A stretch of DNA of 64,000 bases. Origin: Takakia lepidozioides. Taxonomy: Eukaryota > Plantae > Bryophyta. The first letter of the stretch is position 1, and every line of letters starts with the position of its first letter. Below, one piece after another: positions 1 to 61,697 of the stretch. A program made the position numbers and the translations under genes. The DNA lies in assembly GCA_030704615.1 (NCBI GenBank), contig CM060733.1:22258001-22322000 (forward strand), given 5' to 3'. A model generated the notes under the pieces. It searched no databases and was not told the DNA's origin. It was given only the letters and a program-made list of their open reading frames with translations.

Positions 1-279
1 GTATGAGCCCGAGCCGTGTCTTTGGCTAGTGGGGATGATTGTCGACTAGATGGAGCTGACTGCCCTGCCTTTGGCTGATAAGTAGACAATTTCTCAGGCA
101 TAGGAGATCCCCGTGAGGTTTACTATTTCATGAGCGCATGAGCCCATGAGCCTATGAGCCTATGAGCTCATGAGCGGGCATCCGCGGAATTGGAATTTTC
201 CTGCCTTTATTGACGGTGTTATGTCCTCTTACCTCGGTAATAGGGTCTGTTTCTCCTGGTCCAGGATGCGGAATGAGGA

Positions 280-560
280 ATTTCGGCGCCGTTATTCCCA
301 AGAGCAGTGTGCTAAAATGGTGTTTTGAAGACATCCACCGGGGTATTTCGGCACCGAAATTACCTCTTAAAATGTGATATAGTGCGGTATTTAAAGGCGC
401 AGAACGGGCTATTTCGGCGCCGAAATACCCAAGTGGAATGTGGTGAAGTGCCTTGTGTTGAAGGCTTCCATCGCGATATTTTGGTGCAGTAATTCATCCG
501 TGGAATTTTTGAGGCCCATATAACGAAGGCGGCAAACTGGGCTATTTCGGCGCGCCAAAT
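280..560. repeat. Left subterminal dispersed TTTCGGCGCCG(AAAT) motifs of element A
   Basis: Copies at ~280, ~345, ~411, ~480 (degenerate) and ~544. Confidence 0.8.
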
Positions 561-1569
561 TTCCCAATAGGAATGTTAGAAACGGCAGTGGTTTTCATGG
601 CTTCAAGTTCCGGCTCGATGGTTGCTGGCATAAATTACTTGTAGGGTTCTTCACTGAGTTTGCGTCTCTTCTGCTTTTATTATAGTTTTGGTTGGCGGAA
701 GAAAATGTAGGGAATGGACAGCAGTCTGAACACAATGATTTTTAAATCGTCAATATTTTCATTAAGTGTTGTCAGAACTGTACAACAAAAGGATCCAAAT
801 GAGACTTTGCTATGGTGAGGATCCGCTATCACTGTCCGATGCATCCCCGGCCTCATGCAGGATGGCTGCCTTCCACCTGCCTCCGAACCTGCACTGCCGC
901 TACCGCTGTTACTCTGAGAAGCCCTCCCCTCAAAAATACCATCCTCACCAGCGGAACTGTCCACCTGGGTGCGGAAGTGTCCTCAACATTCCCTCGCTCT
1001 CGGACGCGGATTCTATTACGAACTTCCCTACTCTGCCTTTCACAATTCTATGTTTGGCCTCACGCCTCATTATAATTCTCTGCTCATTCCCGTATGTCAA
1101 TTGCTCTAACCGAGTAGGCCTATCCTCCCTCCTGATGGCTTCTTGGCAGCCGTGTCTGCATAGGCTGGTAGAAAAAAGGGCTTCTGGGGACTCGCGAGAA
1201 ACGATTTTCTGGCAAAGAATGGCCGATGCATGCGACTGTCTCCTCCTCTGCAACAGGGTCCGATTCGGGCAAGTCTCCCAGCTTCTCCTCGTCGGACGAC
1301 TCTGCAAGGCTGAGTGTACGCACAAACATAGAATGAAGTACATAGAGAATTCAAACAGGGAATCATCGGCAGGTTGCATGGTCCCTACAACCGAAACCAA
1401 TACACTTACTATGGTGCAACTCACTCGAAGACAGGCATTGGGGGAAGCGGCTTCGGGCGCCCCTGCATCGAACGAATTTCCGGACTTCCTCCTCTCATCT
1501 TCCTCCTCTCTTCCACGTCCTCTTCTGCGTTTTTGGGATCCTCAGTCGGAGGCAGACGCTGAAGGCCCG

Positions 1570-2420
1570 CCAAATTGTAATCGTACAAGGCCGTATACCC
1601 CTCAAATGAGAACACAAATCGGTTCGACATCCTTCCCGCCCACATACAGGCACCTGCGAATTCATACGACACAACCACAGCCAAACTCAAGAATGAGTCG
1701 CTTCCTCGCACAAGCAAACATACAGAAACGGAAATGGTGTCAATTTCGGTGCCGCATTCAATTAACGTTCTCACCTGTATTTGCAGTGACGTCAAGGACC
1801 CTGCCTTCAACATCCGTACACGTTTCCATGAGCGTCTGGATGAATGCAGGACTCCTGGTCCTGCCATACCTCCATGGCTTGCCCGACAAATCACAAAGAA
1901 TGTCCTTCTCTCCCACATGGTTGAACAGGACGTTATACTCCAGTGGATCAACTGTGGAATCAACAAGTCTTCCTGCTTCACGTAATTTGAATTTCGAATG
2001 TTCCTTCACGAAGCAAAATGCCTGAAAGATAAGAGTCTGCAGAGAAGGAAATGAAAAACGTCAGAGGTGGCCTACGTACAAGGGCAATTTCGGCGCAGAA
2101 ATTGACATAGCAGAGGAGAACCACAGCATACCTTCTGGCCATCGTTGAGAAGACCCTGCGTGTTGATGCAAGTCCAGATCTTTTTCAGGATGGGTGCTGC
2201 ACTTCTCCCCGTCCATACTTTGATATCATTCTCAGTGACTTCTCCATCGGCTGCTAGCACAACAACACAGCCCACGTCGTCCAACATGTTGGCTGCGAAC
2301 CCGAATGTGTGGCTCCAGTATCTTTCGTCGTACTTGTCCACCAGGGAACTGAGCCCAGCCCCAGTATCTCCTGCCCATCCGGGATATCCACAAGGATCAT
2401 GTCGATGGAGGCTTTCACCG
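1570..2420 (-). other. Beta-class N4-cytosine/N6-adenine methyltransferase-like domain
   Basis: The sequence reads SIDMILVDIPDG (motif-IV position, DIPD at 2377-2388), then WDKYDERYWSHTFGFAANMLDDVGCVVVL, then PWRYGRTRSPAFIQTLMETCTDVEGRVLDVTANTG|ACMWAGRMSNRFVFSFE. This follows the pattern SVDLIxTDPPY ... LKPGG ... GDxVLDPFxGSGTTxxAAxxLGRxxIGxE, with motif IV before motif I. Confidence 0.75.
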
Positions 2421-4700
2421 CCCTGCCCCCGACTGTGCTCTTTTTGCCGTGGCTCATCGCCACAAAAACCACCACTCCATCTTTGTGTAGCCAGGAGTGT
2501 CCTCCATATCATTGCCAGTGGCCTTCCTCTTCCCCTTCCCCTGGTGGGCCTCGATCGCCTTCCTCAATCTCGTTATCTCCAGCCTTCTGGTCAGAGCAGT
2601 TAGGAAATTTTCATTAACACACTCCACAATTGTGGGTGTTTTGAGGACTTCCCTGCCCGCAATGTGCACCGCACGGTAGGGTCTGCCAGGTGCATCCTCG
2701 TATAGTGATCTTCTTCGCAGCCGACCCCCCGGAGCGCTGGCCCTTGTGAATTTTCGGACGAGGTGTGGCCCCCTGGGTGTTTTCCTGCTGGAAATCGTCG
2801 TCGGAATCCTCCTCATCTGGCTGACTGTGTTGCTGCTTCTTCTTATGGGTGTGGGGGTCTTCGTCTCTTGCCCCTGTTTGCGCGTTCTTTTCTTCCTGTC
2901 CTTGGGCTGCTCAGCTGCCTGCTTCTCCATCTGCTCCTTCGCCAACGCTGCCGCCTTGGCTGACTTTCTCAGTGCTTTCTGCTTGGCTGCCTCCTCTGCT
3001 TTCAGTCTTTCCGCGTCCTCTGGTTGGGGATCCGATTGCGCCTTCATAGCCCTGGCATTCGCTTCCTTCTTCAAGTTAACCTCCGAGAGGTCAACGGTCC
3101 CACTTGGGAGATCCACATACCAGGGGCAGTCTACCAAATGCTCGGCATGCCACTCCTTCGCCATTACTTCTGTGTGTACATCGTTCCACGACCTCCAGGT
3201 GTCCTCCACGCCAGGAAGAATGGTGGAACCCTTTGAATGGCTCCGGACGGAATGAGTGCAAAGTTTATGTACCTGCAATCACGAGGCAGTTCAACAAAAA
3301 TCATTCTACCGATGCATCATGCAAGTGGAAGTTGTCAATGCACAAGGTATTTCGGCACGAAATACGGAGTGGACCGTGCCCCAATTACCCAGAACTCACA
3401 TCTTGCAGAGGTATATTTCGGCGCCGCAATATCCATCGCTGCTTAACCAAATCATCTAAACTGCAAATAGGGGGATGCATTGTCAGCAGATTACCTGAAC
3501 AGGACACGCATTGCCGCTTTGTCGCACCCTCCTGCTCTTCGATAATACGCTGCGTCTTGCCTTTGCAATTTCTCTGAAAAAGAGGTTTGCGAAGCGCCCT
3601 CGCCAGGACTGCACGTAGTTCTCCATTGTCTCAGGCTTCGTCCAGTCGATCTGTAACTTGAAAGTGGTGGTGTTGCAGTCCAATTGCTCCTGGGCGTGGG
3701 TCAGTACCTGCATCATGGCAGGTTTCCAAAACATTCATGATTTTGAAATTGCGACGATGTCCAACACAGAATAGGAGAAAATTATACCTGATGCCACCAA
3801 GTCATGACATTGAGCCAGTCGTTCATTTTGTCGTCTGTTGGCTCGATGGGAAAGTGGTACAGCAGCTTCGTGTTTGTATGGCCGTTCCAGATTCGCAGCC
3901 ACCTCGTCTGCAGCCACCTCACATCGGTCAGACAAGAACTCCAACATAAGAATCGCGAGAAGTCACAAAAAAAAGAATAAACACATGCTTACCTTCTCCG
4001 CCGGCTCAACACAGGACACTGCGATGTGATGAAGTTTCTCCATGGACATTTCCGGTTTCATGGGTCTGGAGTAATGCAGTCCTATCTCCGCCAGGAACTC
4101 GGCACCAAGACCAGGGTCAGCGATTGCAACTTGCTTAACAAGTTTGGACCTGTACTTGGTCCGGGATTGCTTCCCTGCCTGCACAATATGACTCTCTATC
4201 GACGCGTCGCCTTGTTGGGGGCATCATTCTCAAAGAACTGCCTTTTGGCATAGGCCAAGTCATCCCTGATGTTCGTCTGCATTCCCATACCCAGCAGATA
4301 CAGTCAGGCCACGGATCCCTGCAACAAATAACATTAAATTGATACTGAAATTTGAGATGAACCTCACCGAATAGAGGATCTCCACCATGGCGTCCAGTGT
4401 TGGTCGGTACCAGGTGCGATCTGCTTTCGCTAGGGACTTCCTGTACAGCTCGGGATCGAGGGACTTTTGGAAGTCGTCAGCGGAGCTGTGTCCCACTTCT
4501 TGCACTCTGTAGAGCGTATGTGCCAGATGAGTTTCCACGAAGGCCCTCTCTGTTACCCTGCCATGGAGAAAAAAACAACATGAAAATATGATTTCGGCAC
4601 AGCAATCCAATTTCCAGTTCATAGAGTGCATGACAGTGGTGAACATTGCCTATTTCGGCGCCGCAATAGGCAGTACACAAGGATGTAATTGTATACTTAC

Positions 4701-5130
4701 AGATTTATATCCGCCATGGCACCCTTCAACAGTCCTCTGTCCCTGACGTCCACCTTCACGACAATGCAGTCCACCATGTAATGCCAACTGATATCTTGCG
4801 GATGCATTTCAGCAATGTACTCTGTCCAGGCAAGCATCCTGTGGTTCCCGTCCCAAACGAAGAAATCTTCCCTTCCATGTGTGCGAATGTGGGATTAGTC
4901 TTCAGATAGGCTTCAAACTCGGCATTAACAGTGTGCCAGTGGGGGCCCCCATTCTGAAGCTCCTCTGCAGTGGGGCCCCTTGTGACACCCTGGTCATTCT
5001 CAATGGAAACGTAGAATGCTGCCGACCCCCGTCTGTACCCTTCTCTGAAGTTGTGCTTCAGTCGATCGATATCCCCTGGCAGTGCTTGCCTTACAACTGG
5101 AAGGCTTACCATGCGACACAAAGGAACTTT
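4701..5130 (-). other. ParB/Sulfiredoxin-like domain
   Basis: VPLCRMVSLPVVRQALPGDIDRLKHNFREGY...FYVS..., then after a 1-bp frameshift near 4865 FFVWDGNHRMLAWTEYIAEMHPQDISWHYMVDCIVV. DGNHR is at 4838-4852 and fits the GxxRxxA signature. Confidence 0.72.
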
Positions 5131-6377
5131 GAGGTTCTCGGATACACCATGGAGCCCAAAACGCGGGCCTATGTTGCTATGAGTCTCTGCCAGCAACCTG
5201 TTTGCTGCTATGTTCATGTCTCGTGCGCTCATGAGCATACCCGCCACCAGTTTCTTACTTGTATCACCTCTGTCACTTCCTCACCCCTCTCACCAGCCTG
5301 TGTACTGTCCTGGAGGTTTTGCTCCTCCGCAAGCTCCAGCAGGTTCTGATCGTCGCCAAGTCGTACCACGTTATCGTCCTCTCCTTCTGTCAGCTGAATG
5401 GGCCGCCCTTCTGCAGATCCGACTCCCACATCTCCAGCGGCCTCCACCGCATCTGTGTTTTCTGAAATTGACTGCAAACCCAATATCTCCGCTTCCAGTC
5501 TCCCTAGGGGTTTTACTGGCGAAGCCATGGGCTCCTTCTGCTTTCTCGGCTTCCGAACTCTAGGTGGGCTTTTCGGAGGCGATATCTGAGGTGTTGAATG
5601 AGGACTCGTCTGCCTCGATGCACTTCCACCTTGTGAGCGCAGCACCCGGGCAGGAGTATCCAAAGTTGACTGTGTTGCCTCGCCCCCCTGCGATCCCTCC
5701 CCAGCTCCCATGTCAAACAAACAGGAAAACATGAGACACTGCACGCCAAAAAAAAGGTGTAAAAGGAATATTGCGTATGGAGTGCTTCACATCCGCGAAG
5801 CACGAATCTCTCACTGGTGGGCGATCCGAGTCTCCGGATAACGAGGTCTGCATTTCATGCATGAGACGGAGCTTAAGTCGTGTCGTCGGCGGCTTCCCAA
5901 AATCCCGCGTCCTCCTCTTTGCGGAGTCGCCTGACCTTCCACAAACTCTATGCTACCACTATGCCGCATAAGGAGAGGAAACGCAGGAGGAGAACGTCAC
6001 TGCAGAAGGGCAAGGAGCGCGAGAGCGAAGCGGCGGGAACATGCAACCACTATGCACGAGCAGATGCGTAAGCAGCCACGTCTCCCGAAGCGTTGCCACC
6101 GTCCAACACTTTTGCCGTATGGGTGATGAAGAGATTGTGACCCCTGACACGTTCGCACGGATGAAGTCGACTGGAACACGACGCGTGCCAGTTCCAGCCA
6201 CCAGTACAAGACGGTTTATCCGAATTGCGGCCACGAAATACCTTCCGTTCACCGGATGCTGTTCCCGGAGCAGCCGGCATTGAATGAAATATCCGCACAT
6301 CATGAAACCCAACCGCCATGAAAATCCCCTGCCTATGACATTCAACAGTCAGGTCGGTACGTTTCAACAGCGGACGG

Positions 6378-7985
6378 ATGAATTTCGGCGCCGAAATTCA
6401 TCTATTCAAGTGCTTTCATACACAAACTTACGAATTTCGGCGCCGCAATTCATCGCTTCCGAAGTCCTCATCCGTCATGAGCAAACCTGTCAGTGGGATA
6501 TCGGAGCCGGAATTAATTCGGGACAGTGGAAACGGTTGCACTTGGGCACATTTCATCCATATTTCGGCGCCGAAATTCATTACGAATATCTCCGTCCGCG
6601 CGTAGACGAGGTGAAATCATCATTATTTCGGCGCCGAAATTCATCCAGAGCGAAGACTAAATTGGCACCATGCTACGCTTTGCCGCCATCATTGCCCCTG
6701 ACGGAGGATGCTGTCCATGCCTGTTGGACTTGCCATTTTGTGGACATTTAACTATAATTTCGGCGCCGAAATTATACTTTATGTGCGGCAACGTCCCGTG
6801 CGAAAAAGACCACTTAATGGATACTGTCGGTTTCAAATGAAAAAAAACGGCTAAAAATGCAATTAATTTTGACAGAAGTGGTTTAATATGCCGATTTCTC
6901 CATTAAATGCAGAATATTCCTGTTATATTCGTCGGAACGGGTATTTCCAACGATTTACGGAATATATCATCCAAAAGCAAAAAGTAAGTGCCGGGTTTGG
7001 ACGAATTTCGGCGCCGAAATTCATCCGTCGCATAGAAAATGTAATATTAGAGTTACTCATGCGGACAGTAAGGATGAATTTCGGCGCCGAAATTGATCCA
7101 TTTCAAAGAAAAATAAATATTGGAGGAAGGCATTGGATGAATTTCGGCGCCGAAATCCGGCGCTCAAACCCTGAAAAGAATTTGAGGGATGAAGTCGGCT
7201 GAATTTCGGCGCCGAAATTCATGCTCGCGAAGGAAAAAAAAAATTCGGGAGGACTTTGGATGAATTTCGGCGCCGAAATTCATTGCTCGCGAAGGAAAAT
7301 AAAAAATTTCGGGAGGACTTGGAATGAATTTCGGCGCCGAAATTCAATGCTCGCGAAGAAGAAAAAATAAAATCGGGAGGATTTCGGTTGAATTCGGCGC
7401 CGAAATTCATCATTCATTGCTCGCGAAGAAAAAAGAAAAATTAAAAGGAGTACTTGGATGAGATTCGGCGCCAAAGTTCATCTGTCGGAAGAAAAATAAA
7501 AACAAAAAGGACTTCCGATGAATTCCGCACCGAAATCCATCCCAGGGCAGCAGGCAGCAGAATTAGGGTCGGAAAAGGAGATGAAGAATGAATTTCGGCG
7601 CCGAAATACATCCATTCTGCCGATTCAGGATTACTGTCATTCGGAAGTCGGGCACCGATATCCGGACACGTGGTGAATCACGACTGTAATCAGGAACACA
7701 TTCATCCGTATTTTGGCATCTAAATTCAACCCATATGTGCAGATACAATTTAATGAAGAAGAAGTTCATCCGAATTTCGGCACCGAAATCCATCCGTTGG
7801 GTGCTTGGTCAGTTTAATGAGGTAAACAAATTACGATTTCTGTTGCCAGAATTCATCCCTGGCTTCCAAAGCTGTTACATGACAGAGATGTTCATCCAGA
7901 TTTCGGTGCCGAAATTCATGGGAAGGCCTGATTTATTGTACCCCAAGTGGTTGTACATTACAATTCAGGCACCAAATATCCGATG
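6378..7985. repeat. Intergenic array of ATGAATTTCGGCGCCGAAATTCAT palindromes, including a ~62-bp-period tandem block at ~7195-7535
   Basis: At least a dozen near-perfect copies (for example ~6378, 6561, 6625, 6755, 7003, 7075, 7138, 7200, 7260, 7325, 7390, 7590) lie between the two divergently oriented genes. Confidence 0.92.
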
Positions 7986-8165
7986 TGAACTTGCTGTTCT
8001 CACCGTTTTTTTAACGTACGTTACACACCTTCATCTTTACGTGCACTGATCACCCATCCTGTTGGATACGGAATCCTCCAGAAAATCATTTGTGTTATTA
8101 GGTAGGACACACTCTTCTCATTGCAGGACTTCGCTGCGGAGCGTACCGAGAGGTCCGTCTTCAAA

Positions 8166-11100
8166 ATGGACTCCCGTGTTTGGGTCAACGTGTACTTCCA
8201 TCCTGATTCTCTGAAAGCTAAAATACCCTGCGACCAAGGATTTGCGATTGTCACTGAGCAGTACTTGTGTGTGAAGTTCGGGCTCCGCCCTGGAACGGTG
8301 TTTTTGGAAGAGGAGACGAAGGATGCTTATGGAAATTTTCTGGAAAGTGCCGTCATTCTGCATGCAGATTTCGGAAAAGGCAAAGAGTGGCGGCTCCCAG
8401 CTTCTGAATCCATCCGGTACAGTGCCATTGGTGAAATCGTGCCTAAAGAGTTCCCACGCTGGAACTTGGTTGATCCTCCTTCCACAAGAGGGTCTGGCGT
8501 GCAAGATGTGAAGGATGTGGGCACCTCTTCACAAGCAGAGAAGCCCAAACATGTGAAAAGGGAAATCCAGGAAAACAGGGAAACAGTCGTCCACGACTTA
8601 TCCAGTGACGATGAAGACTGTATGGTCCTTCCATCGTATGTTTCGAAGTCGTCCGTCACTAGGAGTGTTCAGCATACACCGTCCGACTCAACTTCCGTCC
8701 GCTCAGTAATCGACATATTGCGGAGGATGAAGACAACGGGTTCCCGCTCCAGTGACCTTCTTAGGCTTGATTACGACAAAACTCCAATCCATTCTGTGGA
8801 AACTTTGCCTGATGTTGTGGATGGGAATGCTATCTACGAGTTCCCTCCAGTGCCGGCAGGCGCAGGCCCAGACGGCATGCTCGCAGGAATGAACAGGAAA
8901 CATGACGGCCACCCTTGGTGTGTCACCAAAACTTCATCGTCCAACCTGGGTGATGGAGTTCGAGTGAGATATGTATTGTGTGCTGGGCATCTTAAATGTT
9001 TCTCGAGCACATGTTACCATTACACTAGCAAAGGCACCAGGAATGAGACTGACTGGATTGGCAATTCGTCGACCCCATTTTGGCCTCAAGGTAGAGTTCC
9101 TGCAGGGACGTTCAAGTGTGCCCATTGCAACGCAGCCCCTACGTGCATGGCAGTGTGCAACGCCAAGCAGTACTACGTCGGGACCGTCGGCCCAGCGTGC
9201 ACCAGAGCATGCATTCACATCGGAAAGCATGAGCACCCCCTCGCCAGAGGCAATTGCAGAGTCGCTTTTCAACAAGCCCAGGATATTATCAAGGAGGAGG
9301 TGAGGTTGAGGCCGGGTGCAAAACCAAAGCAGATACAGCTCGCATCGGCACATAGGATTGCAATTGGCAGAATAATGTCGGAGGACGGAAGCACAAGAGA
9401 GAAGCTGGGCGAGGGGGACATGAAGGACCTGCTGGAAGCTGTTCCCATGTGTGCAGCCCCAATGTCAGGAACCACATTGTCAGCTGCAAGAAACGAATCG
9501 GAAGAGGATCAGACATGCACTCCATCTTGGAAGTGAAGCGCACATGCGGCTACGACTTCATCCAAGGCAGCTTCTTTCCTGGTCAAGGCTCGGAGACGGA
9601 CAGGTGCTTCATATTTAAGATGTCAACGTGCGGACCGGGGAGCGGCGTCGATTTGGTGAAGCGGATGACCAGTGGAGACCTTTCAAATTGTTGGGTCATG
9701 TTCGACCACATCCGGCGAATTACCAACCACGATTGGGTGACAATGGGGGCACATGTATACGACCCACATTGCAGAAAGTTGATGACCATTGCTATCTGCG
9801 AAATGAAGGGAGAAGACACAGATTCGGAGTTGCATATGTGGCGCGGAATTAATGAGCAAATGGCGAGAGCCAAGTTGCCCCCTCCCGATTTTAGGGGCTT
9901 CATGGCTGACAATGCCCAGGCAAACTGGGCTGCAGTTAGAGGGTATATGGGGACGACCCAAAGACTCCAATGGAAGGAAAGGAGAGATCTTGCGGGTTCC
10001 ACTTCATGCAGAGTTTGACGCAAAACACGAAAAGGTTCGTGGCGTCACGCCACCGGCAGGATCATATCAGTATGTGCCTAGCGTGGAAAAATGCGAATTC
10101 CATCGACGAGGCGGAGACCGAGTTTGCAACCATACGCGCCTGGTGGGTGTCTTCAGGGGCAGTGGATGTGAAAGATCAGCCAAAACTGCAAACGTGGCTT
10201 GCGTGGTGGCATTATAGATTCCGCCAGTTTGGAGACTACATGAGACAGGTAACACATTTCTGTACTTGACAATTGTTCTGTTTTGTGCTTGGACATTCTC
10301 CACAATCAGTGACATATCTAATTTCCTTCAACAGGACATGAGCTTGGAGGATGACACGGATATGCCGACGACGAACATGGCCGAATCGGTGCACTCTTCC
10401 TGGCGTGCTTCCTCTGCAGCACATCTCGTTGACATGTTGACAGCAACAACAGAAGATATTGTGAGGGCCATCATGCAACAATCTCATTACTACCAGTTTC
10501 TGGGAGGAAAGCAATGGGGTATCGGACCAGACAGGCAGGAGATGCTGATGAGGGCGGCGCATCGTTCGACCGATCCAAAAAATGGACTGCTGCATTGCGG
10601 GAAACAATAAGGTCAACGCCGTTACACAGTCGGGGGAACTGTCTAGAGGGCGATGTCCGCAGCCGGCCGGTGAAGAGAAGAATTGAGGACATGCCCGGAG
10701 GGGATGGGGATTCATGGAGATCAGATATGAACATCCGCACTCAACCTCGGGGCGCAACGATGTTGCGTCCCACGCCTCCACGAAGCAGGACTCGTACCCC
10801 CTCTCCTGCAGCATCCATGGAATCGCTGCCAGACTCGGGACAACATGCCGAGGATGGGCATGTTGCTCCTGTTTTCGTTACCCAATACAGCATTCCAATC
10901 GTGGAGCGAGATGTGTCGGCCTCGCAGTGGAGAATTGCACGGACCCGTCCGACATTTCGTGGCAAATGTTGTGCTGTTCGTGTCGACACCAACCAGAGAT
11001 GCAATGAGATGATTCGGAGGAGCCCGCAGGGCGGTGTGCCTGCCCCTTGCTTCACAGGGAGATTTGTGTGCGCAAAGTTTGTGGAGGCCACCCTGAAGGA

Positions 11101-11761
11101 GTTTTGGTTCTGCAGGCACGACATCATGTCGTGTGTGTTCGGCAAGCCCAAGTATGGTGTACAAGGCATGCCTGAACCACCGGCAGTCTGGCCTGTGGCA
11201 AGTGGTACAGATCTTACCCTGGAGGAGGCAGACGCTCTAGGAAGTGCAGGGTTTCGACTGGTGGAGAGGACAGACGTTCCACGAAATCCAATTCCCAATC
11301 GTCATCCTCCTCCCACGAGAAGCTCTTCGCCCCGCATACCGGTGGGTGACCCCGCAGCTTGGCCCACCCATCGGTGGGGGAAACTGAAAAGACGGCAGCC
11401 ACCAACAAAGGCGAACGACACCAGGATGGCCAACGCTCTTGCAATGCCCTGCATAGTGCAAGGTTGCAGGGATGTTCCTCACCCCGGGATGGGGCGCATA
11501 TTTCAGTTGTCAACAGCCGGGTCTGCTGCGCGCAGTGTCGTGTATGCAATCACGGTTTCACAGTACCCAGCTTGCAACTGTGAGGACTTCCTTGTTATGG
11601 AATCGAAGAATGCAGCATACGTCCCCTGCAAACACCTTTATTACATATTTATGAAGCGCATGAGTTGCATATCCGCAGTGGACGTCTTCATCCATGCTCC
11701 AACACTGAGTTTCAACGAGCTGCACAAGGCCCTACGGCAGGATACTGGTCGGACTGCTTGA
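8166..11761 (+). pseudogene. MULE-type DDE transposase with an N-terminal Cys/His-rich (GCM-like) domain and a C-terminal SWIM zinc finger; one intron, about three frameshifts
   Basis: HDGHPW...CAGHLKCFSSTC...CAHC...C...HEH. Catalytic-type motifs VMFDH, FMADNA and TTNMAESVH. Mutator CxxH signature (SCGFH). SWIM CNCEDF...PCKH. GT-AG intron 10249-10334. Confidence 0.9.
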
Positions 11762-12442
11762 CATTCCACATTCGGGAAGGAGAAAGTGACAATTATATTA
11801 CATTCATCTTCTTGCACCCTATTTTTTTGTGAGGAATTATACACATGGTGGTGCCGCATCGCCATGGCTACAGGTGAATTTTGGTGCCGCAATACATGAG
11901 AATGTGGTTTTTGGCCATGAATGGCATGCGCATGCTTTTTTATTTTGGTTGTCTACAAATGGATCCGAGTAAAGCATACATTGTGTGGAGATTAACGGGC
12001 ATTGAGGCCTATTTCAGCGCCATTTATGGTCTGTGTACTGCATAGTGCTTCCTTGTTACTGCTCTTCATTCAATTTGTAGTGATTTCGCAGCCCATCCTG
12101 GCGTTTTCGTCCACCTTTATGAGAAGACTCCAATTTGCTACAAATACATTGTTACTGTTCTGCAAATGTGATGCCTTTACAAGATTGCTAGTTCTGTGCC
12201 CCAGTGGGAAGGGTCCTACTACACATTCCAGCATTTGCATACTGCACCTTGTGCAAACAGCAATCCATACGACAAAGGACACGTCCCAGCATACTGGCAG
12301 TGAATTGCAAAAAACCTTAACAGAAGATTATCGAAGCATGTATATTCCCCATATGGCACAGGGAAGCTGCTTGATTTCTGAATGAAAATGTATGTGCCAT
12401 GAGTGTCAGCGAGTTGAAACATGTCTACTCTAGCATGCAAGA

Positions 12443-12988
12443 CTATGGTCCCCTCGCCCAAGAAGAAGGAACTCGAACTGGCCTCTCAAGGACCTCCTCA
12501 GTGATCGGGTGCCTATATTTGAACAAAATGTCAGTGGTTTCCATCGCCCGGTTGAAACTAACGAGGATGTCGTGTTTATCGATAGCGCCCCCTTGGTAGA
12601 AGGACATTTTCACAGTGGGCCCTGTGTTCCCCTCCTCCTCATCCTCATAACTGAAGAGAATGTCCCCACTTTCCGAGCCAGTCCGTCCACGCGTAAAGTT
12701 TTCACCTATGCACTCATCATATGTCCACTCGCAACAATTCCAGCGATACAGCAACGCTGATCTGTTCGGCTCCCACACATGCGGAAAGTCCAGGTCCATG
12801 ATGCGTAGGAACCACCTGCTCCCCAGCCGGGGTCCAGGAGAATCGTGCAATCCTGGAAGAAACTCCATTGCTCTCAGCTGGACAAGTCGAGGATCGTCCC
12901 TGTAAACATCCAGGAAGACAATGATGTCGTTTGCTTTCGGGAAAATGACTCCCGTCTGGCGTCGATAGATGTGATTCGGGCACGACAC
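12443..12988 (-). CDS. Unknown 181-aa ORF inside element A, possibly continuing into 12070-12282
   Basis: Uninterrupted ORF of globular-looking composition, convergent with the transposase and inside the TIRs. No recognised motif. Confidence 0.4.
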   Translation of the reverse strand: MSCPNHIYRRQTGVIFPKANDIIVFLDVYRDDPRLVQLRAMEFLPGLHDSPGPRLGSRWFLRIMDLDFPHVWEPNRSALLYRWNCCEWTYDECIGENFTRGRTGSESGDILFSYEDEEEGNTGPTVKMSFYQGGAIDKHDILVSFNRAMETTDILFKYRHPITEEVLERPVRVPSSWARGP

Positions 12989-13094
12989 AGCACGAACTCA
13001 AAGCAGGGAGGAGATGGGCACAACAGAGAAGAGTGAAGAGCAAAATGAGAGCAAGGCCTCCCTCACCGTAAGGTGGGTATTTGCTCTCCGACGC

Positions 13095-13565
13095 CCAATT
13101 TCGGCGCCGTTATTACATGGAGTGCGGAAGCTTCAGCCGAGAATTTTGTTTCCGCAGATCAATTTCGGCGCCGTTATTGGTTGCAATCCCCAGCCTTCAG
13201 CCGGGTATTTGGTTTCCGGACCCAATTTCGGCGCCGTTATCGGCTGCACTCCGGTGGCTTGAGCCGAGTATTTGGTTTCCGGGCCCATTTCGGCGCCGTT
13301 ATCGCCTGCACTCCGAAGGATGCAGCCGGGTATTTGGTTGGCGGAGCCCAATTACTTTCACCGTTGTTGGCTTCACTCCCGAGCCTTCAGCCGGCTATTT
13401 CTTTTCCTGTGCCCAATTACGGCGTCGTTATACCCAACCATCCTGCACTTCTGCAATAGTACTATCCACGGTTATAGGTCGCCATTGCGTTTTCGGAGTC
13501 TGCAAACCCGGATCCTAATTCCGCTTGCGTCTCTGCCTCTGGGATAATTTCGGTGCCGTTATTGC
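13095..13565. repeat. Right subterminal AATTTCGGCGCCGTTAT repeats of element A (~62-bp period)
   Basis: Copies at ~13097, 13161, 13224, 13287, 13416 (degenerate) and 13546. Confidence 0.85.
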
Positions 13566-13806
13566 CCAGAATTCAGTTATTATGACCTGGCCTGGCGGTC
13601 CATGAGCCTGGGCTCCAAGTCATGAGCGTACACTGGTACTCATGAGCGGAGTGCTTCCAGCATGAGCGCGGAAATCTTCGATTTTTGATTATTTTATAGT
13701 TTTTGGCCCGAAAAAAATCTGCCGAAATTCGAAGTGTGTTACTTTGCGGCTCATGGGTTAGCCATGCCCGCTCATGAGCTCATGAGCTCATGGAATAGCA
13801 ACCCCC

Positions 13807-14282
13807 AGATCCCCGTCGTTTCTTCTCCGCCATTTGTAACTCATAATCCTCAGCCATGTCAAAATTTCCCTCCACAGAACCAGTGGTATTTGAATCATCT
13901 TCCCACCGTTGGCCGTGCTGTTTCCTGACCTTATGTGGCTTCTCAGGAAGCTTGACTGGCATACAATGTATGCCCACCATATCTGGAAGCTTATATTGTA
14001 AGACTTGTGTCAACCTCTTTCGAGCAAGATTAGTATATGCCCGCAGCTCTTCATCTGTATAGCTGAGTGGTGTGCCGATGACTTTGGAAAAGTGCAGCCA
14101 CTTTCTGGCCTCATGCCCTTTGGGAAAAATGTGGTCAAGGCTCAAGTTCTCCTTGGCCAAGTTCTCCAGAGCAAAAAAAAACCAAGAACAGAGTTTTGGA
14201 TCCTTTTGAAGCATGACCCTTACATCATACACATATGTGTGTGGTGGAACTGGAGGTAGCGTCCAATGTTCCCCACTTGAAA
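13807..14282 (-). pseudogene. C-terminal part of the 3' extra ORF of Gypsy element E (target of element A; continues at 1-114)
   Basis: QVLQYKLPDMVGIHCMP...MAEDYELQMAEKKRRGS matches the paralogue at 43018-43616 (QVLQFKLPDMVGPHCMP; MAEDYAIQMAEKKRRGS). Confidence 0.8.
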
Positions 14283-15014
14283 TGTCGCGCACCTCACTTC
14301 GGTAAGCTCCCCTTCAAGTCATAGTTACTCGCTCCGATGCGCGCGCCTGACTCCCAACCTGGCCGCCCGGGCCAACTTGGAGCTTCGGCTGCTCACCGGG
14401 ACATAACGGTCCCCCCTTCGCTTCCCACTAAACCCTCCACCTATTTGGGCCTAGGAGAATTCCCTTTGGTAGATGGCAGTCCGGAACAGCTCCCCACTCT
14501 TTGGTCGCTTTCCGGCTCGCTCGCTTACTCACTAGTTTTTGGTCACCAACGGGCTTGCACCGTTCTCGGGGTCACTACTCCCCTTATATATACTTCTGTA
14601 GCTGTCCGCGGGGGTTTCACAACCAGCCATGCCATTTTATGGCGAACCACCACAAAAACCCTCGACTCCCGGTGATGAGTCGCGGTGAGTCTTGGCCCAC
14701 TCACCACGGCCCCTCTGGACCGTGATGAGTCCCAAGACTCCCCACGACTCCCACCACGAGGTCTCCGCCCCCATGGTGAGTCCTATGCCACCCCCACTAA
14801 GTCCCGCTAAGCTACCACCACCCCTTGTGAAGCCACCCCCACCGCAACCCGGTGTGCGGGGCTCCACCTAGTGAGCGCCTCCGCCTCCTTGAGTGCCTTG
14901 GGCACTCAAGGGTGCTTCAGCCCCCCCCCATACCTATCGCTGCCGCTGCCCCCACCACAGGGGCAGCCCCTCGTGTGTCCCGACCCCCTGCCCTCAAGGC
15001 AAAGGGCCGCGACA
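14283..15014 (-). repeat. 3' LTR of chromovirus D
   Basis: Reverse complement of the solo LTR at 28266-28976. Preceded on the minus strand by the purine-rich GGTAGGGGTGTG. Confidence 0.92.
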
Positions 15015-15919
15015 CACACCCCTACCAACAGGGAGTCGATGTCCTCATCGACTTGTCCATTTTGTAGAAACGAACATCCAAGTTGTGGTGTCCCACATCA
15101 AGGAGTTTGTTTCCGTACCATGGCGTCCCATGGCAAAGAACCAAACCCCACACTTGACTCTACTCTCCACTAGCTAGTTCGGCCGACTTCCTCCAAGTCC
15201 CGGCCAAAGGTGGAGCCTCTCCAGCTCCTCCCAGTGCACTCTTCTTGGCCTACTTCAAGGCCAAGGAACGATCCTCCCCGAGGATCGAATCGCCTTACTG
15301 CAACAACATTGCTTGCGATCGCTTATGATGCCGCTTTTGGCGTCACCTTGAGCAAGGGTTCCCTGGAACCTTCTTTGACTAGGATGATAACCTTGAACCA
15401 ACCGTGCGCCCCAATCACTACAATTGGGTCCGCCTTGGAATGCTGGCCTGAGGTACGGGAACATGCCGAAGCCGCACTACGACTTCGTCCCGAGGCTACA
15501 CGATTATAGTACGTGAACGGAAGCACGTAGCTTCCGCGTTAGCCCACACTACAAGGCAACCCCCTCGGTAGCGCAGTTATAGTACGCGCACGCGCCAGGT
15601 GCGCACTAGCACGTGAACTCCCAAAGAAGTCGCAAGTTTCCTTGCCCCTTGGATGGGGGTCACCCGATTTCGGCACTACGCAAACACACGATTAACCCAA
15701 TTTACCTCTCCCACTTTTATAAGCTAGCATGCATTCTACACACTAGCCAACCATACCATGCATCACCATTCCAAACAAAATAGGACGCACAACATTTGGA
15801 ACCCATTTCCTTTATAACAAATTTTTGTACAATACAAGTTTTTGTAATCGGATTCCTAAGCTAGCTAAGCCGGGCTAAGCATGCATTTCCTCCCCCACGC
15901 TCCAAGGTTGATGTCCCCA

Positions 15920-18900
15920 TCAACGTTTCTTCCGCTTTTGAGGTCGCCCTTCGAAAGCTACAACCGCCTCGGATGCGTTTCTCATTTCTGAGGCACGCAC
16001 CCAAGATGCCTGCACATGATGATAGCCCTTCCATTTGACGAGATACTCCGTTTCTCGGTTCTTGAACCTCCTCGACTTAAGTATTGCCTCCACCTCGTAC
16101 TCAGGTTCATTTTCATGATCCAACAGCATAGGTGGCGGACGCAACACTTGATGCCGATTCGGACGCGCTTCATCTTTGAAGTAAGGCTTCAAAAGGGAGA
16201 CATGGAATACTGGGTGCACCTTGCTGTTTGCCGGCAGTCGTAGGTCGGAAGGCGGTGCTCATCTTCAGCCTCGTCCCCATCTTCTTCCAAGGTGCCCTCC
16301 AAAATTTACTCGTAAACTTTGGATCGCGGTCCGAGACAATATCCTTCGGGACTCCATGATGCTTTAAGACGTGGGCGAAGTAAAGTCGCCCTGTCTCCTG
16401 CGCCGTTGCCGTCTCCTTGGTGGGGATGAAATGGCCCATTTTACTGAACCTATCCCCCACCACCATGATTGCATCGAATCCCTTTTGACAGCGGCATAGC
16501 AGTCATGAAATCCATCGAGACGCTTTCCCAAGTCCCCTCTGGAATCGGCAAGGGTTGTAACAGCCCCGCTTGCTTTTTGTACTCGCTCCGGTTTTGTTGG
16601 CATGTGGTGCATGTCTTGACATACTCCTCTGCCTCCTCCCTCAGTTTGGGCCAGAAATACTCTTTCTTCAAGAGTGCCGCAGTGCGCTTGGCTCCGCCGT
16701 GGCCCGCAAGCGGGCTATCATGGCATTCTCTCAAGAGGCTATCTCTGATCCCTCCCTTCGGCACGTAGAGACACTTTTGCTTATACCGGAGCAGTCCATT
16801 TTGCAAGTGGAACTGCGATTTAACCCCCATCCTCAAGTCCTGCATCATGGACTTCGCCAGCTCATCCTTCCGGCAAGCCTTCCGGATCTTCCTTTGGAGC
16901 GTCGTCTCGCCCTTGTACACCAACAAGAGCTGCTGCTTTCTACTTAAAGCATCGGCCACCACGTTGTCTCGTCCCGATTTGTACTGGATATCCACGTCGA
17001 ACACCGCCAAAGTATCTTGCCACCTAAGTTGTTTTGGGGACAACTTGGGCTGCGTGGCAAAATACTTCACCGTGACATTGTCCGTGAACACCTTCACTGG
17101 GTTGGAACCAACATAGTGGCGCCAAAGCTCAAGACAGTGCACCATTGCCTTCATCTCATTCTCGTGCGTCGGCCACCGTCGCTCCACTTCATTCAGTTTC
17201 TTACTTTCGTAAGCCACTGGGCGTCCATCTTGCATTAGTACACCCCCAATCGCGAAGTCCGACGCATCTGTGTGTATCTCGAACGGACGATCGAACTCCG
17301 GGATTTTCAAGACTAGAGCTTCCGCCATCCGCTGCTTCAATTCAGCAAAAGCTTGGCCACAAAAGGTGTTCCATGCCCAGACTTTAGATTTACACAGAAG
17401 GTCTGACAGCGGCCCCGCAATCTTGGCGAAATTTCTAACATACTTCCGGTAATAGGAGGCGAGTCCTAGGAAGGATCGCACTCCCGGGACCGAAGTCGGA
17501 GGCTCCCAGTCCAAGATCGCCCTCACCTTTCTGTCATCCATTTTGACCCCATCATGTGTAATCACATGCCTCAGGAACTCCACTTTTGTGACCCCGAATT
17601 CGCACTTTGAAGCTTTGGCATACAGCTTCCCTTCCCGCAATTTTGGAACACCCTTTTCAGGTGCTCCAGGTGCTCCTCCTTTGTTTTCGAGTACACCAAG
17701 ATGTCGTCGATGTACACGATCACAAAGTCATCCAACCACTCCTGGAAAAGGTTGTTCATCAACGTGCTAAATGTCGCTGGTGCATTGGTGAGCCCAAAAG
17801 GCATCACCAAGAACTCATATGAACCATACCTTGTCCTGCACGCGGTCTTCTCCTCATCTCCTTCCGCCACCCGAATTTGGTGATAACCGGAGCGCAAGTC
17901 GATCCGGCTGAAATACTTCGCTCCTGCCAATCGATCAAAGAGGTCGTCGATCCTTGGCAAAGGGTACCGGTTTTTGATAGTCACCTTATTCAGAGCCCTG
18001 TAATCGACACACATCCGCAGCGTCCCATCCTTCTTGTCTGCAAATAGCACCAGGGCTCCGTAAGGTGACTTACTCGGCCGGATGTACCCCTTTGACATTA
18101 GATCCTTGAGCTGAGTCTTCAGCTCGACCAACTCTCTGTGGCTCAACCGGTAGGGCGCCTTGGCAGGCGGTTCCGATCCCGGTATCACCTCAATCTTGTG
18201 GTCAACTCCTCTTCGCGGTGGCAAGCCGCTTGGTAAATCCTCCGGCATCACATCCTGGTATTTCTCCAAAATCCTCTTGATCCAATCTGGGCTCGGCTCC
18301 CCATCGCCTTCTCCTTTCACTTCTCTAATGTAAAGCAAAAATTGGGGCTCGTGTGCCTCCTCCACGGCCCACTCCGTTGCTGACAGAAGGTTTATTCGCC
18401 CTCCACGGATTTGGGCGTTTCCGACACTTGTAAAACCTCGCCACCATTCCCACATGGCAGCGTGACTACTCTCTTGCGGCCATCTATGACCGCTCCGGAT
18501 TTGCTCAAAAAGGTCATCCCCAAAATGAGATCCACTCCATCGATCTCGCAGATGGTGAAGTTCTCACGTCCCTCCCAACTCCCCAGTTGAAGAGGAACAT
18601 CAAACGCCAACCTTGTCACCAACTGAGGTTCTCCTTTGGCAGAGCGCACCTCAATAGAGGCCCCCACGTCACTTGTCGGGAGTCCCAACTTTCGCACCGC
18701 CGCCGGCGTCATGAAGGAGTGCGACGCTCCTGTGTCCACCAACAACGACACGTTAGTTCCGGATATTATCCCATCCACGAACAATAACTGACTCCCTTTA
18801 CGCAGGGCGCCAGTTTCCTGATACAACTCACAAGAATAGTTGCCTACCTTGCAAGTCCTAGCGACCACCGCTTCCACCAAGCGACTGATGGTATCTTCCG

Positions 18901-20009
18901 ACAGCTCCGTGGTTGCCCGAGTCAGGTTCAATTGTCGAGGTTTTGTGCACTTCTTGGCCATGTGCCCGGGCTCCCCGCAATTGAAACACACTCCATCAAA
19001 GGTCGCCTTCTGTCCGCCATAAGCTGCTCCACCCGCTTTTCCTTTCGAAGCACCGGGTGCCGCCTTGACGTGTGAAGGCCCTCCCTTCGATTTCCACGTG
19101 CTATTGTCGCCGCGTGGCCTATCCCACTTCTTTTCCGGTCGGGAGGAGTCACCTTCCCGCCGGGTCTTCTTGTGGTTCAGCTCCGTACGGCCTTGTCTCT
19201 CACCCCTAGGGACATCCGAGAAACATTCAGCCCTCTCAATTGCCTCGTTCAAAGTCTTGGGTGGCTTTTCCTCCAACTTCCGCCTGGCCCATGGGGCCAG
19301 TCCCGCCACAAAGTTGAAGACCATTTCTGGTTCTGCCATGTCCGCGACTTCGAGCAACAGCACATTGAAAGCCTGGACGTACCCCCGAATGTCATCTGTT
19401 TGCTTCAAATTCCTCATCTTGTCCCGGGCAAGCCAGGACGCGTTGAGGGGCACAAACTGTCTCTTCATCAATTCCTTGAACCCACTCCAGTTCAAGGTTT
19501 CCGGGCTTGGGCCTCGGTCGTGAAGGCGTTTCTGCCACCATTGTTGAGCATAGCCCCTCAAATAGGTGGGAGCCACTTCCACCCGATCCTCGTCACTCAA
19601 CTTGGCCGCCCGGAAGTACTGCTCTAGCTCCAGGAGCCAGGTGTTGAGTGCCTTCCGATTTCGGACGCCCTCGAAGGTGTCGGGTTCCTTAGGCTTCACC
19701 TTAAACTTTGCCTTAGTGGAAGTGGCATTAGCCGCCTTCAACACGTCTTTCAACGTCCCCCAAACTGCGCCAACAACCCTTCCCAAAAGGCTGCCGACAT
19801 GGGAGGCATCTGTTGGTCGGTCGGAGCTCTCACGGATTCCTCGGGCTCAGACTCCTCGGATTCCTCCCGCTCTTGAGCGGCCTTGCTTTCAGAAACCTGC
19901 GTCGCTTCCTCAAACGGCCGCTTCGGTGATACATCGCCCCCATCGGGCTCACCAGGATCATCATCTTTTGGGCCGTTCCGCTTTCGCTTTGGCTTGCCCG
20001 ACCCCATGA
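15920..20009 (-). pseudogene. gag-pol of chromovirus D (frameshifted, integrase partly deleted)
   Basis: Gag KPKEPDTFEG and zinc knuckle CFNCGEPGHMAKKC. Protease [23 protein letters not shown]. RNase H TDASDFAIG. Integrase HH-CC and SMDF/SDRD. Chromodomain EYEVEAIL...YLVKWKGY. Confidence 0.93.
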
Positions 20010-20101
20010 TGAGGCCAATCCCAAGGACGATCGCGTACTGAACTCTAAGGCAGCCCCTTGTGTGTCCCGACCCCCTGCCCTCAAGGCAAAGGGCCGCGAC
20101 A

Positions 20102-22840: not shown

Positions 22841-23228
22841 ATATGTGGCAAAGGTTCCCCTTTGCCGGACGTGTAAAGTGTTCCGTTACCTGTCCTCTTG
22901 ATGCATTATTGGGCTCATGATAAGTTTCGGCTGATGTACGGGGTAGATACTTTGACGGCCCTGTTTGTCTTCTTGTGTGATAGCGCTCATTATTGCAGTA
23001 CATGCAATGCGGAGTGCTTCGCCCCTTAGGCCACGTGTTTGAATTCAAACATTCTCTCGTCTCCTTCTGTCCCCATGGCACATTCTCCGTGTTTGACTCC
23101 CAAACTGTCTTTATACTTACCGGCCACTTTACTGTCGTTAACTCGTGTCCACCTGCCACTGCTATAATGGACTGTGCAACCTATGCGGGTTGTGTTGCCT
23201 GTGATGGGCTGTGACAAGCTGTGACAGA

Positions 23229-24206
23229 CTATGGTAGGCTGTGTTGGCTGTGTGAACACCTGTGTTCACTGCTATGGCCATACACATTCAACGTTATGAC
23301 AAGTGCTTCATGCTCCGCTGGTGCTACTGATGTAGTCTGTGACTGCATCTGTGTTTCAAGATGCAAATCATGCTGCAATGGTCTATCATGGATACCACTG
23401 TATCCCTTCAACTTGTTGGCATTGACTCTACCAAGCATCTCTTTGTTGATAGTTTGTAACATAGATGTGTTGTTATTATACATCTTCTGTATGTCATAAG
23501 GTCCTTTCCATGGTGATTTAAGCTTAGAAGCTTTAATCTTTTCCTTCTTCTGCAACCACGGTACCAAATCACCTGTCTTGCAGTTTGCCTTCATCAAACC
23601 GATCCTTTCTTTTCATCTGAATTCTGGCCATGTTATCTGCTGCATCGGCACGTACTTCTTCCACATGATATAGTTCATGTTTCCTTATTTTAATTGAATC
23701 CTCCAATTCCATTCTCCTTCCCCATTTAGTTCTCATGGTAGGTAATAAGAATTCCACTGGAAGTAAAGCTTCCATGCCATAGACCAATTGAAATGGTGTA
23801 TACCTCATGGTAACTTTGTATGAAGTCCTGTAAGACCACAAAGCTGTTAACAACTTTGTATCCCATTCTGTCATGTTCGCATTAACTATCTTAGCCAAGA
23901 TAGTGCATAGTATTTTGTTAGTGGCCTCTGCCTGCCCATTGCCCTGTGGGTAATAGGTTGCACTCTTCTTGTGCACAATCATGAACTCCTTAGTCAACAG
24001 TTCAATGGTCTCATTAATGAAATGACTTCCCTGGTCACTGATAAATCTAAGGGACAGCCATCTCTTGTGATAATATTCTCATATAGGATGGACTTAGCTG
24101 TGTTGTCTCTCAGAGCCTTAGCTTCCACCCATTTTGTGGTATAATCAGTGGCTGTGATTACATACTTGTTCTGTGTATTCCTAGCAAGTGGATTGATTGG
24201 CCCAAC
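23229..24206 (-). pseudogene. Integrase C-terminal part of Gypsy element E
   Basis: YYPQGNGQAEATNK, WSYRTSYK, TPFQLVYG and KLKSPWKGPY. Paralogous to 57900-58800. Interrupted at 24207 by an LTR. Confidence 0.9.
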
Positions 24207-25614: not shown

Positions 25615-25634
25615 AGATATGAAAAACATGGGAC

Positions 25635-30387: not shown

Positions 30388-30629
30388 GATGTTAGCTATT
30401 TCATGAGCAAGAGTGGCATGAGCGGCATGAGCGGAGTAGTAAGACAATCGGTTTTCATGAGCAGAAGTACAAATTTCGAAAATAAAAAACAATAAAAAAC
30501 ATTAATTTAATGCAATGTGTCAGGAAAAACAAATATATTATTCGGCCCCTTGAAGGGAAAATTGTAGTTTTGACAGTTGTGCTCATGATATTTCGTCTTC
30601 CGCTCATGCCAATTCCCAGCGACATGTGC

Positions 30630-45953: not shown

Positions 45954-46005
<52 letters not shown>

Positions 46006-47439: not shown

Positions 47440-47484
<45 letters not shown>

Positions 47485-61650: not shown

Positions 61651-61657
<7 letters not shown>

Positions 61658-61695: not shown

Positions 61696-61697
<2 letters not shown>

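What the first reader, a model, noticed from the sequence alone, without database searches (positions are those of the whole stretch)
1570..2420. MTase-like domain has DIPD in place of the (D/S/N)PP(Y/F) catalytic motif and DVTANTG in place of DPFxGxG
Seen: motif order and spacing fit a beta-class amino-MTase, and motif I is completed only after in-frame splicing of intron 1654-1774. The aromatic residue that stacks on the flipped base is replaced by Asp. Inference: the domain is either a catalytically dead reader or binder, or an enzyme with changed chemistry or substrate. The interpretation of the whole system depends on which.
Basis: partly seen in the sequence, partly recalled or inferred. 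Interest (0 to 1): 0.8.

Follow-up and report, generated by a model that had tools for sequence, protein, structure and literature searches.

The report
Dead methylase cargo of plant transposon
A 13.7-kb plant jumping gene carries a helper gene whose tail is a bacterial-type DNA methylase domain that lacks the residue that normally holds the target base and several cofactor contacts, so it is likely a non-catalytic DNA-binding part of a transposon helper protein of a design already reported in algae.

Summary
DIPD (2388-2377, minus strand) and DVTANTG lie in a spliced gene inside a 13.7-kb Mutator-like transposon (115-13806, 10-bp target duplication, palindrome arrays). Short-read contigs from four runs carry the same DIPD codons; those covering the sites remove the window's frameshifts. 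Profile alignment to phage beta-class amino-methyltransferases supports the fold (probability 96-97%) and puts DIPDG on DLPYG. The Ile is ordinary (about 3700 viral D[LIM]PYG stretches); only Tyr-to-Asp is odd, and no beta-class enzyme turned up among the Asp or Glu variants examined. Diverged homologous exons show an eroded cofactor pocket: HxT in 0 of 9 (phage 56 of 58), Ala after GxG in 3 of 3 (phage Ser/Thr 57 of 58). The motif II Glu is kept. No diverged homologue covering motif IV was found, so family conservation of DIPD is untested. Best reading (0.6): a dead methylase domain in a transposon helper that binds its own palindromes. ParB-plus-methylase transposon cargo is published for Ectocarpus and red algae, and dead transposon-borne methylases for DIRS1. 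New variant of a known kind; changed chemistry is not excluded (0.12).

The parts
115..13806 (.). Mutator-like DNA transposon, 13.7 kb, short imperfect terminal inverted repeats with ATGAGC units
   Evidence: Identical 10-bp target duplication at 105-114 and 13807-13816; termini compared
1421..5711 (-). Multi-exon accessory gene, roughly 1,100 aa by a rough hand model: disordered N-terminus, ParB-like motif region, middle region, acidic linker, methylase-like C-terminal domain
   Evidence: Three-frame reading; frameshifts absent from short-read contigs where shown; no transcript seen
2377..2388 (-). Motif IV variant D-I-P-D (then G); the fourth codon is GAT, one base from Tyr TAT
   Evidence: aligned on DLPYG of phage beta-class enzymes; unchanged in contigs of X1, X6, X7, X8
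2336..2337 (.). One-base frameshift in the window between motif IV and the rest of the domain; most likely an assembly error (further errors at 2468-2477 and about 4864)
   Evidence: Extra T in X1, X7, X8 at full depth and in 184 of 399 depth in X5; loose ends at 4864-4865 in X5
2037..2131 (-). Predicted intron (GT..AG; in-frame alternative acceptor ending at 2022), holds a palindrome copy at 2087
   Evidence: P0037 reads through an intron at the same place, P0007 lacks it
1775..2036 (-). Exon with the target-recognition region, the RTRSP segment in place of HPTQKP, and motif I DVTANTG (1793-1775)
   Evidence: 8 of 16 HMMER hits are homologues of this exon, 32-48% identity, E 2.5e-13 to 6e-4; Atlas top hits PF01555 at 0.87-0.88, a lead only
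1654..1774 (-). Intron, 121 nt, phase 1, holds a palindrome copy at 1743
   Evidence: 17 of the 18 listed substitutions in 1625-1870 fall in it (21 rows of that table hidden)
1421..1653 (-). Last exon: helix after motif I, motif II strand ending in Glu (codon 1603-1601), acidic tail, stop
4703..5136 (-). ParB/Srx-like region with a DGNHR motif; call rests on motif likeness only
   Evidence: No Pfam, NCBIfam or Atlas hit; 1 of 4 tested phage proteins with the same heptapeptide has a weak ParB_N hit, E 0.0065
8106..11761 (+). Transposase gene, head-to-head with the accessory gene; Mutator-type D..CxxH..E and C-terminal SWIM finger recognised from recalled motifs
   Evidence: ORFs; no Pfam or NCBIfam hit
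6382..7915 (.). Main array of the 16-bp palindrome ATTTCGGCGCCGAAAT between the two genes; further copies at 280-559, 13098-13562 and in four introns of the accessory gene
   Evidence: 38 sites at up to 4 mismatches in the element against 0.65 expected (max 2) from 20 shuffles
12443..12997 (-). Third ORF of the element, 184 aa, unknown
   Evidence: no Pfam or NCBIfam hit

Best explanation
The domain descends from a phage/bacterial beta-class amino-methyltransferase and is likely catalytically dead, a non-enzymatic part of a transposon helper protein. Shown: the fold relationship, DIPD at motif IV, altered cofactor contacts in homologues, the head-to-head layout with a transposase, and palindrome arrays in the element's non-coding DNA. 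Inferred: without the aromatic residue the target base cannot be stacked for methyl transfer, and without the His and the Ser/Thr after GxG the cofactor binds weakly or not productively. Also inferred: the helper binds the 16-bp palindromes through its ParB-like or middle region, and the dead domain adds dimerisation and non-specific DNA contact. The helper would then work like VANC, occupying the element's own non-coding DNA to keep it expressed or mobile, by occupancy rather than by writing a methyl mark.
For: Mechanism: the fourth residue of [DNSH]PP[YFW] holds the target base by pi-stacking (PMC4738411 section 7). About 3700 viral stretches match the D[LIM]PYG pattern (estimate from 3 of 64 parts), against 4 for the Asp and 1 for the Glu variant; none of those 5 is a beta-class enzyme. 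Of 120 GTDB loci with the Asp variant, 80 were read in frame; none is beta-class and one (L245) is an unpermuted N6_Mtase-family protein. Cofactor contacts named for the rotifer beta-class enzyme (His253, Thr285, Asp88; PMC10406627 passages; mapping is mine): HxT in 56 of 58 phage enzymes and 0 of 9 plant-family rows; Ser/Thr after GxG in 57 of 58 and Ala in 3 of 3; first Gly of GxG in only 2 of 7 readable plant-family rows. A sister element at about 37.7-40.4 kb keeps the middle region and palindrome arrays but has no methylase-like or ParB-like part. A deletion form joining 2051 to 5306, which removes DIPD, is in X1, X6 and X8. Precedent: all DIRS1 methylase copies and METTL14 are described as likely inactive (PMC4738411 passages).
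Against: No diverged homologue covers motif IV, so DIPD may be limited to this element family. The motif I Asp, a hydroxyl residue within motif I and the motif II Glu are kept, and the exon is conserved across homologues at 32-48% identity, which fits continued cofactor binding. Several homologues look decayed (P0004, P0015, P0024-26, P0037), so their drift may be pseudogene noise. The sister element and the deletion form may simply be non-autonomous copies. Binding to the palindrome, the ParB call and any anti-silencing effect are untested. CpG retention in the element (observed/expected 0.83 against 0.31-0.34 in two LTR-type regions) is matched by the Gypsy region at 14.4-20.1 kb (0.83), so age explains it equally well.
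Confidence: 0.6

Rival explanations
1. Active enzyme with changed chemistry or substrate: the D-x-P-D loop positions a different acceptor (N1 of adenine, a protein or polyamine amine, or a methylated cytosine), and the helper modifies its own element or the chromatin on it.
For: First Asp of motif IV, Asp of motif I and Glu of motif II are kept. tRNA m1A58 methylases depend on one conserved Asp (PMC5372732 passages); that their loop reads D-x-P-[DE], and that spermidine synthases have D-x-x-D there, is recalled, not tested. One bacterial N6_Mtase-family protein has the same DLPDG (L245). Algal elements pair ParB-like domains with other DNA-modifying domains.
Against: His and Ser/Thr cofactor contacts are gone in all readable plant-family rows. 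Asp is one transversion from Tyr. No beta-class enzyme was among the Asp or Glu variants examined. No evidence that the Asp is under selection.
Confidence: 0.12
2. Lineage-specific decay: the domain was an active 6mA/4mC writer in the ancestor, took a single Tyr-to-Asp hit in this element family, and is now a functionless vestige carried along.
For: One base change suffices. The organism B copy that shares DIPD maps to a stop at 2352 and is only about 5% diverged, so its retention of DIPD shows shared ancestry, not selection. Deletion forms and a sister gene lack the domain.
Against: The frame is open once assembly errors are allowed for. Variation among copies is concentrated in the intron (with hidden rows). 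The altered cofactor pocket is shared with homologues at 32-48% identity, so the change is old.
Confidence: 0.16
3. Still a slow or partner-dependent amino-methyltransferase (6mA or 4mC) that marks its own palindromes, with another aromatic residue or an active partner subunit supplying the stacking function.
For: Fold, motif order, spacing and the first Asp and second Pro of motif IV are intact. A Trp pair lies about 12 residues after the motif, at the place of the WD found in 55 of 58 phage enzymes. The Ectocarpus counterpart is predicted to be a writer.
Against: That Trp is also present in enzymes that keep the Tyr, so it is not a replacement. No active partner gene is in the window.
Confidence: 0.12

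Closest known systems
ParB-like + N4/N6 DNA methyltransferase accessory protein of Ectocarpus Sola1-1_Ec32 (PMC12477816; passages read, 5 readable supplements searched with no hit, 2 FASTA supplements and one large table not readable)
   Same: Giant cut-and-paste element; accessory gene on the strand opposite the transposase; about 1,100 aa; ParB-like region plus amino-methylase domain; proposed to bind its own element
   Different: Here a Mutator-type element with a 10-bp duplication in a plant; motif IV lacks the aromatic residue. The passages read do not give the Ectocarpus motif, and sequence homology was not tested.
Plavaka accessory genes PAG2 (PF01555 methylase + SET) and PAG3 (ParB-like + 2OG oxygenase) of Bostrychia, with homologues in Chondrus Mutator elements (bioRxiv 10.1101/2025.02.11.637652; passages read, supplements closed)
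   Same: Transposon cargo with a PF01555-type methylase, a ParB-like domain and adjacent arrays of inverted repeats
   Different: There the two domains are in separate genes with other partners; here one gene, with a degenerate methylase
Phage beta-class amino-methyltransferases of the D[LIM]PYG type (PF01555; 58 fetched here) and the solved CcrM / N4CMT class
   Same: Permuted motif order, motif IV to I spacing, Trp after motif IV, motif I Asp, motif II Glu
   Different: Tyr to Asp in motif IV; HPTQKP replaced; GxG relaxed; Ser/Thr after it replaced by Ala; spliceosomal introns; fused to a long N-terminal part
Inactive amino-methylase domains: DIRS1 retrotransposon MT domain, METTL14 (PMC4738411; passages and section 7 read)
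   Same: Methylase fold kept with disrupted catalytic residues; DIRS1 is also transposon-borne
   Different: The DIRS1 domain is unpermuted and PCIF1-derived, in a retrotransposon polyprotein; METTL14 is a host gene with an active partner
VANC anti-silencing proteins of VANDAL Mutator elements (PMC5735166; abstract and section headings seen)
   Same: Mutator accessory gene; short motifs repeated in non-coding regions of the element
   Different: No homology shown; VANC has demonstrated binding and demethylation, none of which is shown here
Marchantia MpDN4MT1 (bioRxiv 10.1101/2021.02.12.428880; passages read)
   Same: Beta-class amino-methylase of prokaryotic type in a plant genome
   Different: Host gene with intact TSPPY and proven 4mC activity; no transposon or ParB context in the passages read

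Membership tests
Beta-class amino-methyltransferase fold (PF01555) | Motif IV before motif I, with typical spacing | tested here: met
   hhalign global 97.2%, 218 columns collinear; spacing 165 aa
Beta-class amino-methyltransferase fold (PF01555) | Score above the Pfam cut-off | tested here: not met
   Window pieces: no hit; 3 of 8 homologues hit weakly, E 0.13-0.19; only single exons could be scanned
Beta-class amino-methyltransferase fold (PF01555) | Three-dimensional Rossmann methylase fold | tested here: inconclusive
   Model of homologue P0037 had pLDDT 47, pTM 0.27 and lacks motif IV; the spliced window domain was not modelled
Active N6A/N4C methyltransferase | [DNSH]PP[YFW] with aromatic fourth residue | tested here: not met
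   D-I-P-D; definition
Active N6A/N4C methyltransferase | Intact cofactor pocket (motif X Asp, HxT His, GxG plus Ser/Thr, motif II acid) | tested here: not met
   Motif II Glu and motif I Asp kept; His, first Gly and Ser/Thr after GxG lost; motif X Asp aligns to Lys at low confidence
Active N6A/N4C methyltransferase | Methyl transfer from SAM | not testable with these tools
   Needs a biochemical assay
ParB + methylase transposon accessory proteins (Ectocarpus type) | Inside a giant DNA transposon, opposite strand to the transposase | tested here: met
ParB + methylase transposon accessory proteins (Ectocarpus type) | ParB-like domain | tested here: inconclusive
   Motif likeness only
ParB + methylase transposon accessory proteins (Ectocarpus type) | Sequence homology to the algal proteins | not testable with these tools
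   Algal sequences were in supplements that could not be read
Mutator-like element | 9-11 bp target duplication and terminal inverted repeats | tested here: met
   10-bp duplication, imperfect inverted termini
Mutator-like element | MULE transposase domain with SWIM finger | tested here: inconclusive
   Motifs recognised from recall; no Pfam or NCBIfam hit
VANC-type anti-silencing factor | Binds own motifs and causes loss of DNA methylation | not testable with these tools
   Only the layout matches; CpG content is confounded by age

The most novel reading that the evidence does not exclude
A plant Mutator element has rebuilt a phage DNA methylase into an enzyme with new chemistry: the Asp that replaced the stacking Tyr acts as a base or nucleophile on a different acceptor (N1 of adenine, 5-methylcytosine or a histone amine), and the ParB-like part delivers it to the element's own palindromes to undo host silencing.
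Probability: 0.12. Interest if true: 0.85.

Novelty: new variant of a known kind. Interest (0 to 1): 0.42.

Why it matters
Transposon accessory proteins that join a ParB-like domain to a DNA-modifying domain were proposed in 2025 for brown and red algae as self-targeting epigenetic writers, with no test reported in the passages I read. This case extends the design to a plant Mutator element and suggests that the methylase need not be active. The function may then be site occupancy rather than marking. That is directly testable (SAM binding, palindrome binding, Asp-to-Tyr comparison) and bears on how such elements escape silencing. If the Asp loop instead supports new chemistry, it would be a sequence-targeted base modifier of a new type.

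Tried and rejected
No whole genome is held for the window. Word-based homologue searches with single exons found none; the profile search found 4 exon-level proteins and no full-length one. Locus searches gave only short chance-level matches or nothing: metagenomes 5 loci, viral contigs, GTDB, phage and plasmid tblastn. PDB sequence searches gave only noise, E 0.044 or worse. AlphaFold on homologue P0037 with a 16-row alignment failed (pLDDT 47); no fold search was run on it. The Atlas gave no usable hit for the ParB-like piece. No RNA holder was listed; this is no evidence on expression. Rejected: sequencing error as the source of DIPD; pseudogene status inferred from the window's frameshifts (mostly assembly errors); Ile at position 2 as unusual; organism B's DIPD as evidence of selection; CpG retention as evidence of anti-silencing; GGCGCC as a substrate (no support). 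Literature: ten searches; those aimed at this element listed no paper on it in land plants or on a DIPD-type motif. Iyer 2011, cited for green algae, was not read, and unread supplements of the two algal papers may already show degenerate motifs.

Full report
Setting. The window is repeat-rich eukaryotic DNA; no genome is held for it. The best holder among sequencing runs is labelled plant metagenome. The finding lies in a minus-strand, multi-exon gene (about 5711 to 1421, roughly 1,100 aa by hand). The gene is inside a 13.7-kb element, 115-13806, bounded by an identical 10-bp duplication and imperfect inverted termini. Head-to-head with it is a transposase gene (8106-11761) with Mutator-type and SWIM motifs that I recognise from recall; Pfam and NCBIfam do not hit it. 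A 16-bp palindrome occurs 38 times at up to 4 mismatches (0.65 expected), in intergenic arrays and in four introns of the gene.

Observation. DIPD is at 2388-2377 and DVTANTG at 1793-1775; intron 1654-1774 is GT..AG, phase 1, and splices in frame. The last Gly of the motif is read with or without splicing; splicing supplies the following helix and the motif II strand. Short-read contigs show an extra base at 2336 in X1, X7 and X8 at full depth and in part of X5, and other differences at 2468-2477, so these are most likely assembly errors. Long contigs of X1, X6, X7 and X8 (three studies, two organism labels; X1 may be the source sample) span DIPD with all their substitutions listed and none in it. 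The organism B copy differs at 9 of about 180 bases and maps to a stop codon, so it shows that Asp is shared, not that it is selected.

Fold. The 82-aa motif I exon has 16 HMMER hits among 1.84 billion representatives. I kept 8 as homologues; the other 8 match over short stretches, and the two I read are zinc-finger proteins. The homologues are single exons called on metagenome contigs, 32-48% identical. The Atlas puts PF01555 clusters on top at 0.87-0.88, a lead only. I fetched 120 viral loci with a D[LIM]PYG pattern; 115 read in frame (110 DLPYG, 4 DIPYG, 1 DMPYG), and 58 distinct ones with a downstream D-x-x-x-G-x-G were kept. A read-through of the window domain scores 14.2 bits on their HMM, against at most 3.2 for 2000 shuffles. 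Profile-profile alignment gives 95.8% and E 7.8e-9 locally over motif I-II, and 97.2% globally with DIPDG on DLPYG. The motif IV match is partly circular, because the set was chosen with a pattern modelled on it. Spacing is 165 aa against 160-179 in 49 of 58. A structure model of homologue P0037 failed, and the spliced domain was not modelled.

What is unusual. Ile at position 2 is ordinary. Only the fourth residue is odd, and GAT is one base from TAT. In viral contigs about 3700 stretches match the Tyr pattern (estimate), 4 the Asp pattern and 1 the Glu pattern; none of those 5 is a beta-class methylase. In GTDB, 120 of an estimated 160 Asp matches were returned, and 80 passed my in-frame filter (40 not examined). 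None is beta-class; one, L245, is an unpermuted N6_Mtase-family protein with DLPDG at the motif IV position. The aromatic residue holds the target base by stacking (PMC4738411, section 7).

Cofactor pocket. Using the contacts named for rotifer N4CMT (PMC10406627 passages; mapping mine): the HxT His is in 56 of 58 phage enzymes and 0 of 9 plant-family rows. The residue after GxG is Ser/Thr in 57 of 58 and Ala in 3 of 3 plant-family sequences that include that exon. The first Gly of GxG is kept in 2 of 7 readable rows. The motif X Asp (52 of 58) aligns to Lys in the window at low confidence. The motif I Asp, a hydroxyl within motif I and the motif II Glu are kept. So the motif I change is a family trait, not a private mutation, although some homologues look decayed. 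No homologue covers motif IV: P0037 and P0007 begin just after it.

Dispensability. A sister element in the window has a related gene at about 37.7-40.4 kb that shares the middle region (41-56% identity) and has palindrome arrays, but no methylase-like or ParB-like part. A deletion form joining 2051 to 5306 is in X1, X6 and X8. Both may be non-autonomous copies, so this is weak support.

How it likely works. Most likely (0.6) the domain is a pseudo-enzyme. The helper protein would bind the palindromes through its ParB-like or middle region; the dead domain would add dimerisation and DNA contact; the effect would be VANC-like protection or mobilisation of the element by occupancy. Every functional step here is inferred. 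Rivals: a neutral vestige after a recent hit (0.16), changed chemistry (0.12), residual 6mA/4mC writing (0.12). CpG content does not discriminate. No RNA run was listed, so the splice model rests on sequence and homologues.

Known relatives. Ectocarpus Sola1-1_Ec32 carries a 1104-aa ParB-like plus N4/N6 methylase gene opposite its transposase (PMC12477816 passages). Bostrychia Plavaka and Chondrus Mutator elements carry PF01555 and ParB-like accessory genes beside inverted-repeat arrays (bioRxiv 2025.02.11.637652 passages). Inactive transposon-borne methylases are described for DIRS1. VANC gives the functional model (PMC5735166 abstract and headings). Marchantia MpDN4MT1 is an intact, active plant beta-class enzyme. 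Seven searches aimed at this element listed no paper on it in land plants; unread supplements may hold more. An unchecked note of this scan (e1-9727448) describes a Mutator-like element in another genome with a methylase-like gene that lost the catalytic motif; it is a lead, not evidence.

Verdict. Observation confirmed; interpretation partly supported; new variant of a known kind; interest 0.42.

Noticed in passing
window 2051 to 5306: A deletion form of the element that skips 3254 bases (ParB-like region through DIPD) is present in contigs of X1, X6 and X8, so in both organism labels.
   Followed up: partly
window about 30500-40650 and 43300-53800: Two copies of a second Mutator-like family with related transposases and GGCGCC-core palindrome arrays; the first has an accessory gene at about 37.7-40.4 kb that shares the middle region but has no ParB-like or methylase-like part.
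   Followed up: partly
window 280-13562: In the palindrome copies the central C changes to T more often (10 of 76 half-sites) than the outer CpG C (4 of 76), which may reflect past 5mC at the central CpG or tighter constraint on the outer bases.
   Followed up: partly
window 12443-12997 (-): Third ORF inside the element, 184 aa, with no family hit; it has its own small palindrome array upstream (13098-13562).
   Followed up: no
window, whole: The assembly has many one-base indel errors: 52 indel rows over 4.2 kb, 12 shown, most at full depth in X1. Frameshifts elsewhere in this window should not be read as pseudogenes without reads.
   Followed up: partly
L245:1-627 (+): Bacillota unpermuted N6_Mtase-family protein (Pfam E 8e-7) with DLPDG at the motif IV position; resembles the YtxK type (name recalled).
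   Followed up: partly
window 14400-20100, 21000-30000 and 54000-63000: Gypsy-type retrotransposon remains; CpG observed/expected 0.83 in the first and 0.31-0.34 in the other two.
   Followed up: no
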